A stretch of 4,182 nt of DNA from a virus. Lineage: Duplodnaviria; Heunggongvirae; Uroviricota; Caudoviricetes. Of this stretch, positions 1 to 4,089 are shown piece after piece (the stretch's first letter is position 1; every line of letters begins with the position of its first letter). The DNA lies in IMG/VR virus record IMGVR_UViG_2778261347_000020, one strand, 5' to 3'. Position numbers and translations under genes: made by a program. The notes beneath the pieces are model-generated. The model searched no databases. It saw nothing but the letters and a program-made list of their open reading frames with translations, and was not told the DNA's origin.

Positions 1-83
1 TCACCTATTGCGGATGGCAAAAACTCGATAAGGCCGTCACCGTTCTGGCGAAAAGCTGATTTTTCCGGCATCAATCCAGATAT

Positions 84-101
84 GGTGATCCCCATATCGG
101 G
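84..101. repeat. Direct repeat copy A (15-bp exact core gatccccatatcggg at 87..101; 17/18 match over 84..101) paired with 853..870
   Basis: Exact 15-mer seen at 87..101 and 856..870 on the same strand; chance of an exact 15-mer recurring in 4 kb is low. Confidence 0.8.
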
Positions 102-139
102 ATAATTACGAAATTTTCGCAGTTTAATAGGTGACCAGA

Positions 140-337
140 ATGACAGAAGCCGAAAATTATGTGCGTGTTGTTGCTGAGGTGATGCGCCGTGATGGTATCC
201 AGCTTAATGATGTGGATATGCGCAACATACGGATCCGCGTTCTTGAAATGCTGGCCTACCGTCGCCGCGTGCAGACGTACAGGGAAAAAGCAAAAATTAC
301 GTACCACTGGAAGAGGCAGGAGCGGTTACGGCGGTAA
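140..337 (+). CDS. Hypothetical small basic protein, 65 aa (MTEAENYVRVVAEVMRRDGIQLND...KRQERLRR); function unknown
   Basis: ATG at 140 preceded by SD-like AGGTGA (129..134) with 5-nt spacer; stop TAA 335..337; first ~45 codons use E. coli-preferred codons (cgt, cgc, ctg, gaa); Arg/Lys-rich C-terminus. The ORF track starts it at GTG 131; I prefer ATG 140 because of the SD spacing. No family recognised. Confidence 0.35.
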   Translation: MTEAENYVRVVAEVMRRDGIQLNDVDMRNIRIRVLEMLAYRRRVQTYREKAKITYHWKRQERLRR

Positions 338-342
338 CTGGT

Positions 343-369
343 TGAACTTAAAGCAAAGCGCAAAATTGC
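343..369. repeat. 27-bp direct repeat copy 1 (tgaacttaaagcaaagcgcaaaattgc)
   Basis: 26/27 identical to 562..588; begins 6 nt after the stop of the 140..337 ORF. Confidence 0.85.
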
Positions 370-561
370 GTTGGCTGGTGGGTGAGTTGCAGATCTGCAA
401 CTCGACCATGAAATTACGGAAACTACCCGTAGTTTGGGTAGTAAGAGTAACACCCAGATTTTGGGGCTTACTCGCGATACCCAAATAAAGGGTATCGGTG
501 GAAGAAATATCGTTTCTCATATGTGAGTACCGAGGGCGGAATTACGCCTTCGGTTACTCGC
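370..561 (+). other. Hairpin-rich 192-bp segment between the 27-bp direct repeats; candidate structured RNA or small cassette (function unknown)
   Basis: Four stem-loops by manual pairing: 384..403 (palindrome), 422..442 (7-bp stem ACTACCC/GGGTAGT, 7-nt loop), 475..497 (8-bp stem CGATACCC/GGGTATCG, 7-nt loop), 529..554 (10-bp stem with one G.U, 6-nt loop). Stems 2 and 3 share the TACCC...GGGTA arms. Strand of any transcript is not established. Confidence 0.3.
384..403. promoter_or_regulatory. 20-bp perfect palindrome gagttgcagatctgcaactc with central GATC; candidate dimeric protein-binding site or 8-bp stem / 4-nt loop hairpin
   Basis: Sequence equals its own reverse complement over 20 bp (checked base by base); centre is a Dam GATC site. 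Confidence 0.5.
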
Positions 562-588
562 TGAACTTAAAGCAAAGCGCAAATTTGC
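562..588. repeat. 27-bp direct repeat copy 2 (tgaacttaaagcaaagcgcaaatttgc), containing a perfect 10-bp palindrome gcaaatttgc (579..588)
   Basis: 26/27 identity to 343..369; single A/T difference makes the internal palindrome perfect in this copy. Confidence 0.85.
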
Positions 589-852
589 ACTCTGGCCTAA
601 CCCGTTGATATTTCCGGCAACCTCAATTTGAGGAGATCGGAAACATCACCCTTCAAATTCTGAATGGTCATAATGACCACGCAGACCATCAAGGCAACCA
701 CAACGAACATCGTTACGGTTGGAGCTTTTACCCCACTGGGGGAAAAGGTACGCACCTGAATCATCATTACCGTGATCAAGGGTATGTAAAGCCCACCAGC
801 CTGATTAACGTTTAACCGGAAAAAAATTCCGGTATGGGGGGAGTGGGTAGGT

Positions 853-870: not shown

Positions 871-932
871 GAACATCCACCAGCTTCATAACGGATGGCC
901 GGAAAATGATAACGGTTAAAGCGTGTTGATCT

Positions 933-989
933 TTGTTCGTGGTTGTTCGATATTGTTCGTGAAACGGTGTAGTTAATGGTGTAGTTAAT
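933..989. promoter_or_regulatory. Iteron-like direct repeats upstream of clpS: TTGTTCG x3 phased at exactly 10 bp (933..939, 943..949, 953..959) and tandem 12-mer GGTGTAGTTAAT x2 (966..977, 978..989)
   Basis: Seen directly in sequence; 10-bp phasing puts the copies on one helix face, typical of regulator binding arrays; embedded in an AT-rich stretch. Binding protein unknown. Confidence 0.35.
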
Positions 990-1052
990 TTCGCTGTTTT
1001 TGACAGAGTTGTTATTTGTAACACAGTGAAAAATAAAGACTAATCAATGAAA

Positions 1053-1513: not shown

Positions 1514-3790
1514 ATGCTCAATCAAGAACTGGAACTCAGTTTAAATATGGCTTTCGCCAGAGCGCGCGAGCACCGTCATGAGTTTATGACCGTCGAGCAC
1601 TTGTTACTGGCGCTGCTCAGTAACCCATCTGCCCGGGAGGCGCTGGAAGCGTGTTCTGTGGATTTGGTTGCGCTCCGTCAGGAACTGGAAGCCTTTATTG
1701 AACAAACCACACCCGTTCTGCCTGCCAGTGAAGAGGAGCGCGACACACAGCCGACGCTGAGTTTTCAGCGTGTACTGCAACGTGCGGTCTTCCATGTCCA
1801 GTCCTCCGGTCGCAATGAGGTAACCGGTGCAAACGTTCTGGTCGCTATCTTTAGCGAACAGGAGTCGCAGGCGGCATATCTGTTGCGTAAACATGAAGTC
1901 AGCCGTCTCGATGTGGTGAACTTTATCTCTCATGGCACGCGTAAAGACGAGCCGACACAGTCTTCTGATCCTGGCAGCCAGCCAAACAGCGAAGAACAAG
2001 CTGGTGGGGAGGAACGTATGGAGAATTTCACGACGAACCTGAATCAGCTTGCGCGCGTGGGCGGAATCGACCCACTGATTGGTCGTGAGAAGGAGCTGGA
2101 GCGTGCTATTCAGGTTCTCTGCCGTCGCCGTAAAAACAACCCGCTGCTGGTGGGGGAATCTGGTGTCGGTAAAACCGCGATTGCGGAAGGTCTTGCCTGG
2201 CGAATTGTTCAGGGCGATGTGCCGGAAGTGATGGCTGACTGTACGATTTACTCTCTCGATATCGGTTCTCTGTTAGCGGGCACTAAATATCGCGGCGACT
2301 TTGAAAAACGTTTTAAAGCGTTGCTCAAGCAGCTGGAGCAGGACACTAACAGCATCCTGTTTATTGATGAGATCCACACCATTATCGGTGCGGGTGCAGC
2401 GTCTGGTGGCCAGGTCGATGCGGCTAACCTGATCAAACCGTTGCTCTCCAGCGGTAAAATTCGCGTAATTGGTTCGACAACCTATCAGGAGTTCAGCAAC
2501 ATTTTCGAGAAAGACCGTGCTCTGGCGCGTCGCTTCCAGAAAATTGATATTACTGAACCGTCGATCGAAGAAACTGTTCAAATCATCAATGGCCTGAAAC
2601 CGAAGTATGAAGCGCACCACGACGTGCGTTATACCGCAAAAGCGGTGCGTGCAGCGGTAGAGCTGGCGGTGAAATACATTAACGATCGTCATCTGCCGGA
2701 TAAAGCCATTGACGTTATCGACGAAGCGGGCGCTCGCGCACGCCTGATGCCGGTAAGCAAACGCAAGAAAACCGTTAATGTGGCGGATATTGAGTCCGTG
2801 GTGGCCCGTATTGCGCGCATTCCAGAGAAGAGTGTTTCTCAGAGTGACCGCGATACCCTGAAAAACCTCGGCGATCGCCTGAAAATGCTGGTCTTCGGTC
2901 AGGATAAAGCCATTGAGGCGCTGACTGAAGCCATTAAGATGGCGCGTGCAGGTTTAGGTCACGAACATAAACCGGTTGGTTCGTTCCTGTTTGCCGGCCC
3001 TACCGGGGTCGGGAAAACAGAGGTGACGGTACAGCTTTCGAAAGCGTTGGGCATTGAGCTGCTGCGCTTTGATATGTCCGAGTATATGGAACGCCATACC
3101 GTCAGCCGTCTGATTGGTGCGCCTCCGGGATACGTTGGTTTTGATCAGGGAGGTTTGCTGACTGATGCGGTCATCAAGCATCCACATGCGGTGCTGTTGC
3201 TGGACGAAATCGAGAAAGCGCATCCGGACGTGTTCAATATTCTGTTGCAGGTGATGGACAACGGTACGCTGACCGATAACAACGGACGCAAAGCGGACTT
3301 CCGTAACGTGGTGCTGGTGATGACCACCAACGCCGGGGTACGTGAAACTGAGCGTAAATCCATTGGTCTTATCCACCAGGATAACAGCACCGATGCGATG
3401 GAGGAGATCAAGAAGATCTTTACACCGGAATTCCGTAACCGTCTCGACAACATTATCTGGTTTGATCATCTGTCAACCGACGTGATCCATCAGGTGGTGG
3501 ATAAATTCATCGTCGAGTTGCAGGTTCAGCTGGATCAGAAAGGTGTTTCTCTGGAAGTGAGCCAGGAAGCGCGTAACTGGCTGGCCGAGAAAGGTTACGA
3601 CCGGGCAATGGGCGCACGTCCGATGGCGCGTGTCATCCAGGACAACCTGAAAAAACCGCTCGCCAACGAACTGCTGTTTGGTTCGCTGGTGGACGGCGGT
3701 CAGGTCACCGTCGCGCTGGATAAAGAGAAAAATGAGCTGACTTACGGATTCCAGAGTGCACAAAAGCACAAGGCGGAAGCAGCGCATTAA
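1514..3790 (+). CDS. clpA: ClpA, ATP-dependent Clp protease ATP-binding subunit (AAA+ unfoldase, two nucleotide-binding domains), 758 aa
   Basis: ATG at 1514 preceded by SD GGGGGAGG (1501..1508); the ORF track's TTG at 1499 is an upstream in-frame extension, not the likely start. Walker A motifs GESGVGKT (2153..2176, Lys220) and GPTGVGKT (2996..3019, Lys501) are at the positions expected for ClpA D1 and D2. Stop TAA 3788..3790. Confidence 0.98.
2008..2020 (+). promoter_or_regulatory. clpA: Internal SD (GGAGG 2008..2012) plus in-frame ATG (2018..2020, Met169) for the N-terminally truncated ClpA65 isoform
   Basis: Codon 169 of clpA is ATG with a GGAGG 5 nt upstream; internal initiation at Met169 producing a 65-kDa ClpA form is established for E. 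coli clpA. Confidence 0.6.
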
Positions 3791-4001: not shown

Positions 4002-4089
4002 GTTCACTGCCGTACAGGCAGCTTAGAAATCGACGGGGTGCGGTAAAACCTTTGCGAACGCGTTCACTGCCGTACAGACAGATAAAATG
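4002..4089 (+). CRISPR. Type I-F CRISPR mini-array: repeat 1 GTTCACTGCCGTACAGGCAGCTTAGAAA (4002..4029), 32-nt spacer (4030..4061), degenerate terminal repeat GTTCACTGCCGTACAGACAGATAAAATG (4062..4089)
   Basis: Repeat 1 matches the E. coli/Yersinia-subtype I-F 28-nt repeat as I recall it, including the CTGCC-GTACA-GGCAG hairpin bound by Cas6f; spacer length 32 is typical for I-F; second repeat matches the first 16 nt then degenerates. No cas genes in the window. Confidence 0.85.

What the first reader, a model, noticed from the sequence alone, without database searches (positions are those of the whole stretch)
384..403. 20-bp perfect palindrome centred on a GATC Dam site
A perfect 20-bp palindrome is rare by chance in 4 kb and is the kind of site bound by dimeric regulators or nucleases. 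The central GATC makes methylation-sensitive binding possible. It sits 15 nt inside the first 27-bp repeat.
Basis: seen in the sequence. Interest (0 to 1): 0.45.

Follow-up and report, generated by a model that had tools for sequence, protein, structure and literature searches.

The report
Satellite palindrome copied from helper-phage gene
The 20-bp palindrome is real and conserved, but not as a Dam site: it belongs to a non-coding block at the end of an E. coli phage satellite, and three hairpins of that block match hairpins embedded in a regulator-type (KilA-N) gene of lambdoid phages, some of which carry such satellites, which suggests the satellite mimics a phage control element.

Summary
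GAGTTGCAGATCTGCAACTC at 384-403 is an exact palindrome, about 0.5% likely by chance in this window. The window is E. coli: the right end of a ~9 kb PICI-type phage satellite inserted upstream of clpS-clpA.

The palindrome opens a ~130-nt non-coding core (371-501) found in 862 of 5426 complete E. coli genomes. It always follows a small gene of unknown function (phrog_1561), in satellites with unrelated packaging genes.

The arms are almost invariant. The central GATC is not: GATC 67, AATT 12, GATT 9 of 88 copies. Dam control is therefore not essential.

The same 18-22-mer, without flank similarity, lies inside the KilA-N-domain gene (between rusA and Q) of Stx/lambdoid phages. In other Proteobacteria it lies inside or about 150 nt upstream of KilA-N genes. 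Two further hairpins of the window (475-497, 530-553) match alternative alleles of the same KilA-N loop. In seven of ten KilA-N genes examined (five of them distant homologues from other phages), the strongest perfect hairpin of the gene sits at that position.

Best reading: the satellite carries copies of phage KilA-N cis-elements, recognised in trans as DNA or RNA. This is inferred, not shown. Terminator, cos/pac, known RNA family, coding and dispersed-repeat readings were tested and not supported.

The parts
384..403 (.). Perfect 20-bp palindrome GAGTTGCAGATCTGCAACTC ('cassette 1'). The arms GAGTTGCA/TGCAACTC are conserved; the central 4 nt vary.
   Evidence: Identical arms occur inside phage KilA-N genes.
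379..408 (.). Extended imperfect palindrome or hairpin (15-nt arms). The outer pairs show G-C to A-T double changes in the HE-PICI lineage.
   Evidence: alignment pair 11-38: GC 18, AU 3.
371..501 (+). Conserved ~130-nt non-coding core of the satellite, holding the palindrome plus three more hairpins and ending in GGTGG.
   Evidence: Found in 862 of 5426 E. coli genomes and 88 IMG/VR copies. No Rfam match.
421..442 (+). Hairpin AACTACCC-GTAGTTT-GGGTAGT. A 9-nt deletion that removes part of one arm occurs in two lineages, and the hairpin is disrupted in the HE-PICI type.
445..473 (+). Hairpin GAGTAA..CCCA-GATTT-TGGG..TTACTC. It contains several G.T pairs and is poorly kept in the HE-PICI type.
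475..497 (.). Hairpin CGATACCC-AAATAAA-GGGTATCG. The same arms occur inside the long-loop (Sal3-type) allele of phage KilA-N genes.
   Evidence: two compensatory pairs; 16 KilA-N loci carry GATACCC-N7-GGGTATC within 120 nt downstream of cassette 2, about 38 nt in L410.
530..553 (.). Imperfect palindrome CCGAGGGCGGAATTACGCCTTCGG ('cassette 2'). It matches the alternative KilA-N loop allele that encodes LFTEGGI(T/P)P...
   Evidence: 22 of 25 identical to L302, hand count; 17 of 17 between L002 and Salmonella phage 118970_sal3.
332..369 (+). First copy of the 38-nt direct repeat. It overlaps the stop codon of the truncated phrog_1561 ORF and contains most of the small hairpin GCGCAAAATTGCGT (358-371).
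   Evidence: D2; covariation of the small hairpin across satellites.
551..588 (+). Second copy of the 38-nt direct repeat. On the minus strand it scores as a weak terminator-like hairpin.
131..337 (+). Truncated phrog_1561 gene (full length 93 aa in other satellites). It is the last gene of the satellite packaging module.
   Evidence: (annotated as a pseudogene at 149-337).
374..381 (+). Exact Chi octamer GCTGGTGG, 2 nt upstream of the palindrome.
   Evidence: Two opposite-strand Chi sites lie at 793-800 and 877-884.
598..610 (-). Exact IHF consensus TATCAACGGGTTA, within a motif repeated in related satellites.
   Evidence: 2 sites in the window against 0.19 expected.
975..991 (+). 17-bp sequence AATGGTGTAGTTAATTT, also present just upstream of the satellite integrase gene. 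It marks the right end (att core or arm site).

Best explanation
The palindrome is one unit of a non-coding block at the 3' end of the packaging operon of a PICI-type phage satellite. Three hairpins of that block are copies of short palindromic cassettes carried in or next to the KilA-N-domain ('Bro network') gene of lambdoid phages, the phage type in which one related satellite is embedded. I propose that the cassettes are cis-acting recognition elements of the phage KilA-N locus, read by a factor acting in trans. The best candidate is the KilA-N protein itself, binding the symmetric DNA site; this follows what I recall (unverified here) of HK022 Roi binding inside its own gene next to an IHF site. 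Alternatively the cassette is read as a plus-strand RNA hairpin. By carrying copies of cassettes from two alternative KilA-N alleles, the satellite could sense or titrate that phage factor, or pair with its mRNA, across several phage types. Shown here: the element exists, is conserved, is shared as a discrete unit with KilA-N genes, and does not need its GATC. Inferred: that it is recognised in trans, who recognises it, and what the satellite gains.
For: (1) Conservation: 862 of 5426 E. coli genomes hold the module. All 88 copies found through a different 16-mer retain the palindrome, with arms invariant in 76.
(2) The same 18-22-mer lies inside the KilA-N CDS of Stx/lambdoid phages, in at least 76 of 80 protein-selected loci.
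(3) In E. coli genomes the 60 hits listed (of 1480 records) fall into only two contexts, satellite non-coding DNA or the KilA-N CDS (one hit is annotated as an antitermination protein).
(4) The flanks are no more alike than chance, so the palindrome is shared as a discrete unit.
(5) The motif is also linked to KilA-N genes in Citrobacter, Shigella and a betaproteobacterium (inside the gene), and in Glaesserella and two IMG/VR phages (about 150 nt upstream). The outermost pair changes symmetrically there (GAG...CTC to AAG...CTT).
(6) Two further hairpins of the window (530-553 and 475-497) match alternative alleles of the same KilA-N loop.
(7) Of seven KilA-N homologues found by protein similarity in other phages, five (R49, Pm34, APSE-2, Heva, Emek) plus P1 kilA have their own 7-11 bp perfect hairpin at the same alignment position. 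It is the top hairpin of the CDS in 7 of the 10 genes examined.
(8) The prophage that hosts the embedded satellite L004 carries the KilA-N gene with the palindrome. EcCICFT073 lacks the palindrome core and the sequenced part of its helper, phage 4, shows no KilA-N gene between rusA and Q.
(9) Satellite loci holding the core encode no Stx-type KilA-N protein, so any such binder must come in trans.
(10) An exact IHF consensus lies nearby.
Against: No binding, transcription or phenotype data exist for any copy. KilA-N homologues with similar DNA-binding domains carry very different palindromes; that fits selection for a hairpin as such better than a conserved protein-DNA code. The commonest phage variant of cassette 2 pairs well only if three G.U pairs are allowed on the sense strand (hand-derived), which favours RNA over duplex DNA. 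HK022 Roi, the analogy, has a Rha-type rather than KilA-N N-terminus and no comparable palindrome in its gene. Co-occurrence of satellite cassettes with matching prophage alleles in the same genome was seen in single cases only. Covariation within the satellite core is weak because the sequences are about 92% identical.
Confidence: 0.4

Rival explanations
1. Plain structural RNA hairpins. The block is the 3' untranslated region of the satellite late operon, and its stem-loops stabilise, process or terminate the transcript. The matches to KilA-N genes reflect horizontal spread of convenient hairpin cassettes, with no trans-acting recognition.
For: The region 340-600 folds far better than shuffles on either strand (z -8.5 and -10.5). 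Three pairs show compensatory changes. Non-Watson-Crick cells are mostly G.T on the plus strand (72 cells against 6 A.C). Small hairpins upstream covary between satellites. Phage cassette 2 needs G.U pairs on the sense strand.
Against: No U-tract follows the hairpin, and the only terminator-like hit is on the minus strand in the repeat. Plus- and minus-strand consensus energies are equal. A structure-only role does not explain why the arm sequence is identical in satellites, enterobacterial phages, Pasteurellaceae and a betaproteobacterium while the flanks differ. There is no Rfam match.
Confidence: 0.25
2. Small selfish palindromic insertions, comparable to in-frame Rickettsia palindromic elements. 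They land in permissive places such as the KilA-N loop and the satellite non-coding tail, and have no function for satellite or phage.
For: The cassettes are discrete 20-26-nt units without flank similarity. They sit in a variable protein loop that tolerates length changes, with a 21-aa longer allele. In one homologue the cassette is shifted by several codons (L150).
Against: In the 60 E. coli hits listed there are only two contexts and a low copy number: 1-10 places per genome, with both strands counted. The 61 other species hits (of 66) show no KilA-N link and their number is about that expected by chance (my own estimate). No target-site duplications or candidate mobilising enzyme were identified. 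A hairpin at the same position in KilA-N genes of five genera argues for a role tied to that gene.
Confidence: 0.12
3. Dam-methylation-sensitive operator. The methylation state of the central GATC controls binding of a regulator.
For: GATC lies at the dyad in 67 of 88 satellite copies. The host is E. coli, which has Dam.
Against: 21 of 88 satellite copies and at least 76 of 80 protein-selected phage copies lack GATC at the centre. In a hairpin the four central bases form the loop, and in a dimer site they form the spacer. GATC density in the satellite tail is unremarkable (7 in 1 kb).
Confidence: 0.04
4. Packaging site (cos or pac) of satellites that lack the lambda-type cosN, with the palindrome as the symmetric cleavage site.
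For: The position is next to the packaging genes. In EcCICFT073 the cos site lies next to the same small gene. Chi sites face inward around 382-792, and an IHF consensus is present.
Against: The core occurs with four unrelated packaging modules (DUF1441, two TerS types, cf-PICI TerS/TerL) and once with RppA plus a lambda-type cosN. The same palindrome lies in the early (nin) region of phages, far from their cos. There is no similarity to lambda cosN.
Confidence: 0.05
5. Protein-coding. The palindrome lies in small ORFs (326-520 minus strand, 64 aa; 189-488 plus strand, 99 aa), and both strands encode ELQICNS, as the KilA-N gene does.
For: The ORFs exist. The peptide ELQICNS is the one encoded in KilA-N.
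Against: The minus-strand ORF has no Pfam hit. A 1-nt deletion in L015 and differing upstream indels break the frames. There is no similarity to KilA-N beyond the seven residues that the palindrome itself forces.
Confidence: 0.02

Closest known systems
Helper cos sites carried by satellites (P4; E. coli PICI EcCICFT073 cos1/cos2 with Rpp)
   Same: A satellite keeps a short copy of a cis-acting sequence of its helper phage, so that helper machinery acts on satellite DNA (PMC6092414, PMC6739421). The position is also similar: the end of the packaging module, next to the phrog_1561 gene.
   Different: The sequence is not cosN. It is independent of the packaging module type. Its phage counterpart lies in an early-region regulator-type gene, not at the genome ends.
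HK022 Roi, a DNA-binding protein that binds a site inside its own gene next to an IHF site (Clerget and Boccard 1996, J Bacteriol 178:4077; recalled from memory, the paper could not be read here)
   Same: Same genomic neighbourhood in lambdoid phages (nin region, upstream of Q). The C-terminal half is related to P1 Ant1/KilA (as I recall from that paper; not tested here). Both involve a cis-site embedded in the coding sequence. An IHF consensus lies near the satellite copy.
   Different: Roi has a Rha-type rather than KilA-N N-terminal domain, and its gene shows no comparable palindrome. Binding of a KilA-N protein to this palindrome is untested.
Antisense-RNA immunity systems controlling ant/kilA-type genes (P1/P7 C4 RNA, P4 CI RNA, IsrK)
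   Same: Short complementary elements regulate Bro-network genes. APSE-2 has C4 and IsrK RNAs next to its KilA-N gene. A palindrome in one RNA is by definition complementary to the same palindrome in another.
   Different: No covariance-model match to C4, IsrK or any Rfam family in the window. No complementarity beyond the cassettes themselves.
In-frame palindromic insertions in genes (Rickettsia palindromic elements; named from my own knowledge)
   Same: Short hairpin-forming DNA is tolerated inside a surface loop of a protein, and the same units also occur in non-coding DNA.
   Different: Very low copy number and restriction to one gene family plus one satellite block in the hits inspected.

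Membership tests
Dam-regulated GATC site (pap-type, IS10-type or P1 pac-type control) | GATC conserved at the functional position in homologues | tested here: not met
   Centre is GATC 67, AATT 12, GATT 9 of 88 satellite copies. It is GATT in at least 76 of 80 protein-selected phage copies.
Intrinsic (Rho-independent) terminator | G+C-rich hairpin followed directly by a U-tract | tested here: not met
   The scan found no terminator at 379-408. The hairpin is followed by GACCATGAAATTAC.
Lambda-type cos site of cos-PICIs | cosN resembling GGGCGGCGACCT | tested here: not met
   No match with up to 3 mismatches in the window. CFT073 has cosN at L005 3298-3316, upstream of the phrog_1561 gene, but lacks the palindrome core.
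Satellite packaging site in general (cos or pac) | Co-variation with the terminase or Rpp type that must recognise it | tested here: not met
   The core is found with DUF1441 (18 loci), TerS of the L004 type (29), cf-PICI TerL, mostly with its TerS (16), RppA (1), or none of these detected (21).
Known RNA families (Rfam 15, including C4 antisense RNA, IsrK, sRNA-Xcc1) | Covariance-model score at or near the gathering threshold | tested here: not met
   No hit in 330-900 better than E = 0.26, and all hits were implausible. sRNA-Xcc1 is found only in the other phage context.
Structured non-coding RNA (new family) | Base pairs supported by compensatory changes, and strand specificity | tested here: inconclusive
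   3 of 32 pairs have double changes and the covariation term is -0.56 kcal/mol. Plus and minus strand energies are -27.7 and -26.8. Sequences are about 92% identical.
Operator of a dimeric DNA-binding protein (KilA-N or Roi-like autoregulatory site) | Dyad symmetry with conserved arms, a free spacer, and symmetric changes | tested here: met
   Arms are conserved while the centre varies. The outermost pair changes on both sides in other taxa.
Operator of a dimeric DNA-binding protein (KilA-N or Roi-like autoregulatory site) | Specific binding by the protein | not testable with these tools
   Needs a gel-shift, footprinting or ChIP experiment.
Dispersed palindromic repeat (REP, BIME or MITE-like) | Many copies in unrelated intergenic contexts | tested here: not met
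   The 60 listed E. coli hits fall in only two contexts. 61 of 66 species hits show no KilA-N link, and their number is about that expected by chance (my own estimate).
Phage satellite of PICI type (host element) | Integrase, AlpA-type regulator, primase and partial packaging genes in about 9 kb, flanked by direct repeats | tested here: met
   Annotation of the identical locus in O157 strain AR-0427. TerS and capsid family hits. 17-bp flanking repeat.
Chi site | Exact GCTGGTGG | tested here: met
   374-381 on the plus strand; 793-800 and 877-884 on the minus strand. Activity not testable.

The most novel reading that the evidence does not exclude
KilA-N genes of phages from several proteobacterial families carry a hairpin or palindrome cassette at one fixed loop position (or just upstream). 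It would act as the gene's own control element. E. coli phage satellites have collected copies of cassettes from alternative KilA-N alleles into a non-coding array. With this array they would detect, titrate or base-pair with the phage regulator or its mRNA. That would be a previously undescribed form of satellite-helper mimicry acting on an early regulatory gene rather than on packaging.
Probability: 0.3. Interest if true: 0.8.

Novelty: new variant of a known kind. Interest (0 to 1): 0.6.

Why it matters
How Gram-negative PICIs sense and interfere with their helper phages is only partly known. The described mechanisms act on packaging (cos, Rpp, TerS, capsids). A conserved cis-element shared between satellites and an early-region gene just upstream of the late-gene antiterminator Q would point to a second layer of cross-talk. 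It gives a short, testable sequence: three cassettes that can be mutated in the satellite and synonymously recoded in the phage. Separately, a fixed-position hairpin inside KilA-N genes from E. coli, Salmonella, Vibrio, an aphid-symbiont phage (APSE-2) and Ralstonia phages, and P1, is an unexplained feature of a very common phage gene family. My literature searches found no description of it.

Tried and rejected
- Lambda-type cos: no cosN in the window. The literature places PICI cos elsewhere, and CFT073 confirms this.
- AgvB-type anti-sRNA: suggested by a CA-rich stretch at 694-712, but AgvB is encoded in lambdoid prophages. The Hfq-CRAC table for O157 Sakai lists no RNA in SpLE2, which I only guessed might be a related satellite and did not map.
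- Rfam at permissive thresholds: nothing credible.
- DNA similarity of 320-900 and 405-600 to GenBank phages: nothing beyond chance.
- Genome-contig scan with a core pattern: 0 hits, so the core was not found in any species-representative genome.
- Captured KilA-N gene fragment: flank identity is at the chance level of about 25%.
- R49-type KilA-N palindrome in satellites: found only in its own gene.
- HK022 roi as a direct homologue: it has a different N-terminal domain and no palindrome. The Roi paper is not held.
- phrog_1561 as Rpp or as a known DNA binder: no PDB or Pfam relative. The Rpp homologue in CFT073 is the 144-aa gene upstream.
- Promoter at the palindrome: none found.
- Strand assignment from wobble pairs and consensus energies: not decisive.
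- Unbiased test of synonymous-site constraint in the KilA-N palindrome: failed, because the 80 loci returned were 90-100% identical (78 of them at least 97%).

Full report
**Where the window comes from**

The window is Escherichia coli. Bases 1-1162 are 100% identical to a locus in E. coli O157 strain AR-0427 and two other strains. In that annotated genome a ~9 kb element lies between cspD/yljB and clpS. It encodes a tyrosine integrase, a small HTH regulator, an Icd-like protein, a primase, a small terminase subunit and a major capsid protein. Family searches confirm the terminase (PF03592, phrog_641) and the capsid protein (PF05065). This is the gene set of a PICI-type phage satellite.

The window starts in the last 59 bases of the capsid gene. 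clpS is at 1163-1483 and clpA at 1514-3790. A 17-bp sequence at 975-991 recurs just upstream of the integrase gene and marks the right end of the element.

**The observation**

384-403 is GAGTTGCAGATCTGCAACTC, identical to its reverse complement.
- No other perfect palindrome in the window has arms longer than 6 nt.
- Arms of 10 nt or more arose in 27 of 5000 Markov shuffles.
- The symmetry continues imperfectly to 379-408.
- The palindrome lies 15 nt downstream of, not inside, the first copy of a direct repeat (332-369 and 551-588, 38 nt at 89% identity).
- The neighbouring ORF 131-337 is a truncated copy of a 93-aa gene, PHROG family 1561, with no known function, no Pfam domain and no solved relative.

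**A conserved non-coding module**

The stretch 325-558 is present in 862 of 5426 complete E. coli genomes, at many chromosomal sites. It was inspected in three other element types:
- a second PICI at clpS;
- a capsid-forming PICI with its own portal, protease and terminase;
- a satellite embedded in the capsid gene of a lambdoid prophage.

In each it directly follows the phrog_1561 gene that ends the packaging module.

A scan of IMG/VR with a 16-mer that does not overlap the palindrome gave 88 scorable copies and 39 distinct core sequences. The conserved core is about 130 nt (371-501). After GGTGG at about 501 the sequences split into at least three unrelated tails.

All 88 copies carry the palindrome. 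The arms are GAGTTGCA/TGCAACTC in 76 and GAATTGCA/TGCAACTC in 12. The four central bases are GATC in 67, AATT in 12 and GATT in 9. The Dam site is therefore common but dispensable.

**What the module is not**

- *Not a lambda-type cos site.* There is no cosN-like sequence. In EcCICFT073, whose cos sites have been tested experimentally (PMC6092414, PMC6739421), cosN lies between the Rpp homologue and phrog_1561, and the palindrome core is absent.
- *Not tied to one packaging system.* The core occurs with DUF1441, two TerS types, the cf-PICI TerS/TerL pair and once with RppA.
- *Not a terminator or promoter* by consensus scans.
- *Not a known RNA family*.
- *Not convincingly coding.* There is no Pfam hit, and frames are broken by indels in homologues.
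- *No DNA-level relative in GenBank phages* over any length.

**The unexpected link**

Scanning IMG/VR for the palindrome itself (AGTTGCARATYTGCAACT) returned more than 90 contigs that lack the satellite core.

In most, the palindrome lies inside a 265-aa gene. The gene sits between rusA and a DUF968 gene followed by the antiterminator Q, in the nin region of lambdoid and Stx phages. It has a KilA-N domain, and the palindrome encodes the peptide ELQICNS.

Of 80 loci found through the protein sequence, at least 76 contain the palindrome with centre GATT. Two of the remaining four also have it at shifted coordinates.

In complete E. coli genomes the motif occurs in 1478 of 5426. In the 60 hits listed there are only two contexts: satellite non-coding DNA (672 genomes by coverage) or a KilA-N CDS, with one hit annotated as an antitermination protein. 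The 24 nt on either side are no more alike between the two contexts than chance. So a discrete unit of about 20 nt is shared, not a captured gene fragment.

The link extends beyond E. coli. Among 66 species-representative hits, five are KilA-N-linked: Citrobacter, Shigella (two) and a betaproteobacterium, where the palindrome is inside the gene, and Glaesserella, where it lies about 150 nt upstream. The other 61 show no KilA-N link, and their number is about that expected by chance (my own estimate). In Glaesserella and in two IMG/VR phages the upstream palindrome sits in front of a sequence that matches the Rfam family sRNA-Xcc1. In the upstream and betaproteobacterial copies the outermost pair has changed on both sides (GAG...CTC to AAG...CTT).

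**Not a single coincidence**

Two other hairpins of the window module have counterparts at the same place in KilA-N genes.
- *Cassette 2.* An allele about 90% identical overall replaces SELQICNSVNIEP by LFTEGGI(T/P)P(L/S)EQNQ. There the DNA reads ACCGAGGGTGGAATTACGCCTCTGG. Window 529-553 reads ACCGAGGGCGGAATTACGCCTTCGG, 22 of 25 identical. The AATTCC variant of other satellites matches the AATTCC variant of a Salmonella phage, 17 of 17.
- *P4 hairpin.* The longer Salmonella-type allele also contains GATACCC-N7-GGGTATC, about 38 nt further on in L410, in 16 loci. These are the arms of window hairpin 475-497. The remaining hits to that 14-base pattern are at about the number expected by chance (my own estimate).

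KilA-N homologues found only by protein similarity also carry a hairpin at this place: E. coli phage R49, Vibrio phage Pm34, APSE-2, Ralstonia phage Heva, Salmonella phage Emek and P1 kilA. Each has a different perfect hairpin of 7-11 bp at the same alignment position. It is the strongest hairpin of the whole CDS in seven of ten genes examined.

Two single cases fit a satellite-phage relation. The prophage that hosts the embedded satellite carries the KilA-N gene with the palindrome. EcCICFT073 lacks the palindrome core, and the sequenced part of its helper, phage 4, shows no KilA-N gene between rusA and Q. Satellite loci with the core do not encode this KilA-N protein themselves.

**DNA site or RNA hairpin?**

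The evidence is split.

For a DNA site bound by a dimer:
- conserved arms, a free 4-bp centre and symmetric changes;
- sequence identity across distant taxa;
- a nearby exact IHF consensus (598-610);
- the precedent, recalled from memory, that HK022 Roi binds within its own gene beside an IHF site.

However, Roi's N-terminal domain differs and its gene has no such palindrome.

For an RNA hairpin:
- the region folds far better than shuffles;
- three pairs show double changes;
- non-Watson-Crick cells are mainly G.T on the plus strand;
- the commonest phage form of cassette 2 is a good hairpin only with three G.U pairs on the sense strand (hand-derived);
- KilA-N homologues keep a hairpin but not its sequence.

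Plus- and minus-strand consensus energies are equal, and the satellite sequences are too similar for strong covariation.

**Conclusion**

I commit to the following reading, at about 0.4. The cassettes are cis-elements of the phage KilA-N locus that are recognised in trans, and the satellite copies mimic them. The molecular form (DNA or RNA) is left open.

The main rival, at about 0.25, is a purely structural 3'-UTR role. Selfish palindromic insertions, a packaging site, Dam control and coding rank lower.

Literature searches found no description of this element or of palindromes in KilA-N genes. The closest established principle is satellites carrying helper cos sites.

Noticed in passing
window 374-381 (+), 793-800 (-), 877-884 (-): Three exact Chi octamers lie within 510 bp, oriented so that RecBCD entering from anywhere between 382 and 792 meets an active Chi in both directions. 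The Chi 2 nt upstream of the palindrome is present in most but not all satellite types. Related satellites are generally Chi-rich around this block.
   Followed up: partly
window 4002-4029 and 4062-4089: One intact and one degenerate type I-F CRISPR repeat (Rfam CRISPR-DR4, 50 bits and 20 bits) lie downstream of clpA. By my recollection this is the known remnant CRISPR locus between clpA and infA in E. coli. No cas genes are in the window.
   Followed up: no
L126 1231-1340, L168 2228-2345, L644 1535 onward: In phages of Pasteurellaceae and of a high-GC proteobacterium, the same palindrome sits 6-14 nt in front of an sRNA-Xcc1 (RF02221) match, which itself lies directly upstream of a KilA-N gene. 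sRNA-Xcc1 may be a leader or regulator of KilA-N genes.
   Followed up: partly
L217, L218, L219, L220, L221, L222 (KilA-N CDS, nt 153-251): KilA-N genes from five genera (E. coli, Salmonella, Vibrio, an aphid-symbiont phage and Ralstonia), plus P1 kilA, each contain a perfect 7-11 bp hairpin at the same codon position. P1 kilA has GAAACTATGCA-GAAT-TGCATAGTTTC, which is not annotated in the detailed P1 record.
   Followed up: partly
L004 / L223 (NZ_AP022222.1 3524248-3585000): A satellite is integrated inside the major capsid gene of a lambdoid prophage (helper-embedded PICI type). It carries a TIR-domain gene and an abortive-infection gene next to the palindrome core.
   Followed up: partly
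L032 (reverse complement) 7850-8420; also L012, L053, L085: Some satellites have two copies of the core 434 bp apart. They are separated by an origin-like stretch: three GCGGGTTAT iterons, an AT-rich region, then three inverted iterons.
   Followed up: no
window 596-616; L005 3700-3830; L004 11990-12010: A motif CTAACCCGTTGATATTTYC, which contains the IHF consensus on the minus strand, recurs up to three times in the tails of related satellites. Each copy is followed by a different short hairpin. The ORF-end sequence TAACTGGTTGATATT of other satellites also fits the IHF consensus.
   Followed up: partly
window 71-103 and 829-871: Related imperfect palindromes built on GATCCCCATATCGGG lie just after the capsid gene and near the right end. 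TGGGGATCCCCA at 852-863 is a perfect 12-mer. Similar sequences occur at the right end of EcCICFT073 and of the cf-PICI.
   Followed up: no
window 963-986: Tandem GGTGTAGTTAAT x2 lies close to the element's right end and is also present in EcCICFT073 next to phoQ. These are probably integrase arm-type sites shared by satellites with different insertion sites.
   Followed up: no
L123 5416-6411; L223 9169-10158: The gene that follows the KilA-N gene in these phages (DUF968 / YdfU family) ends in a Cys/His-rich motif that looks like an HNH nuclease. A nuclease next to a conserved palindrome may be worth testing.
   Followed up: no
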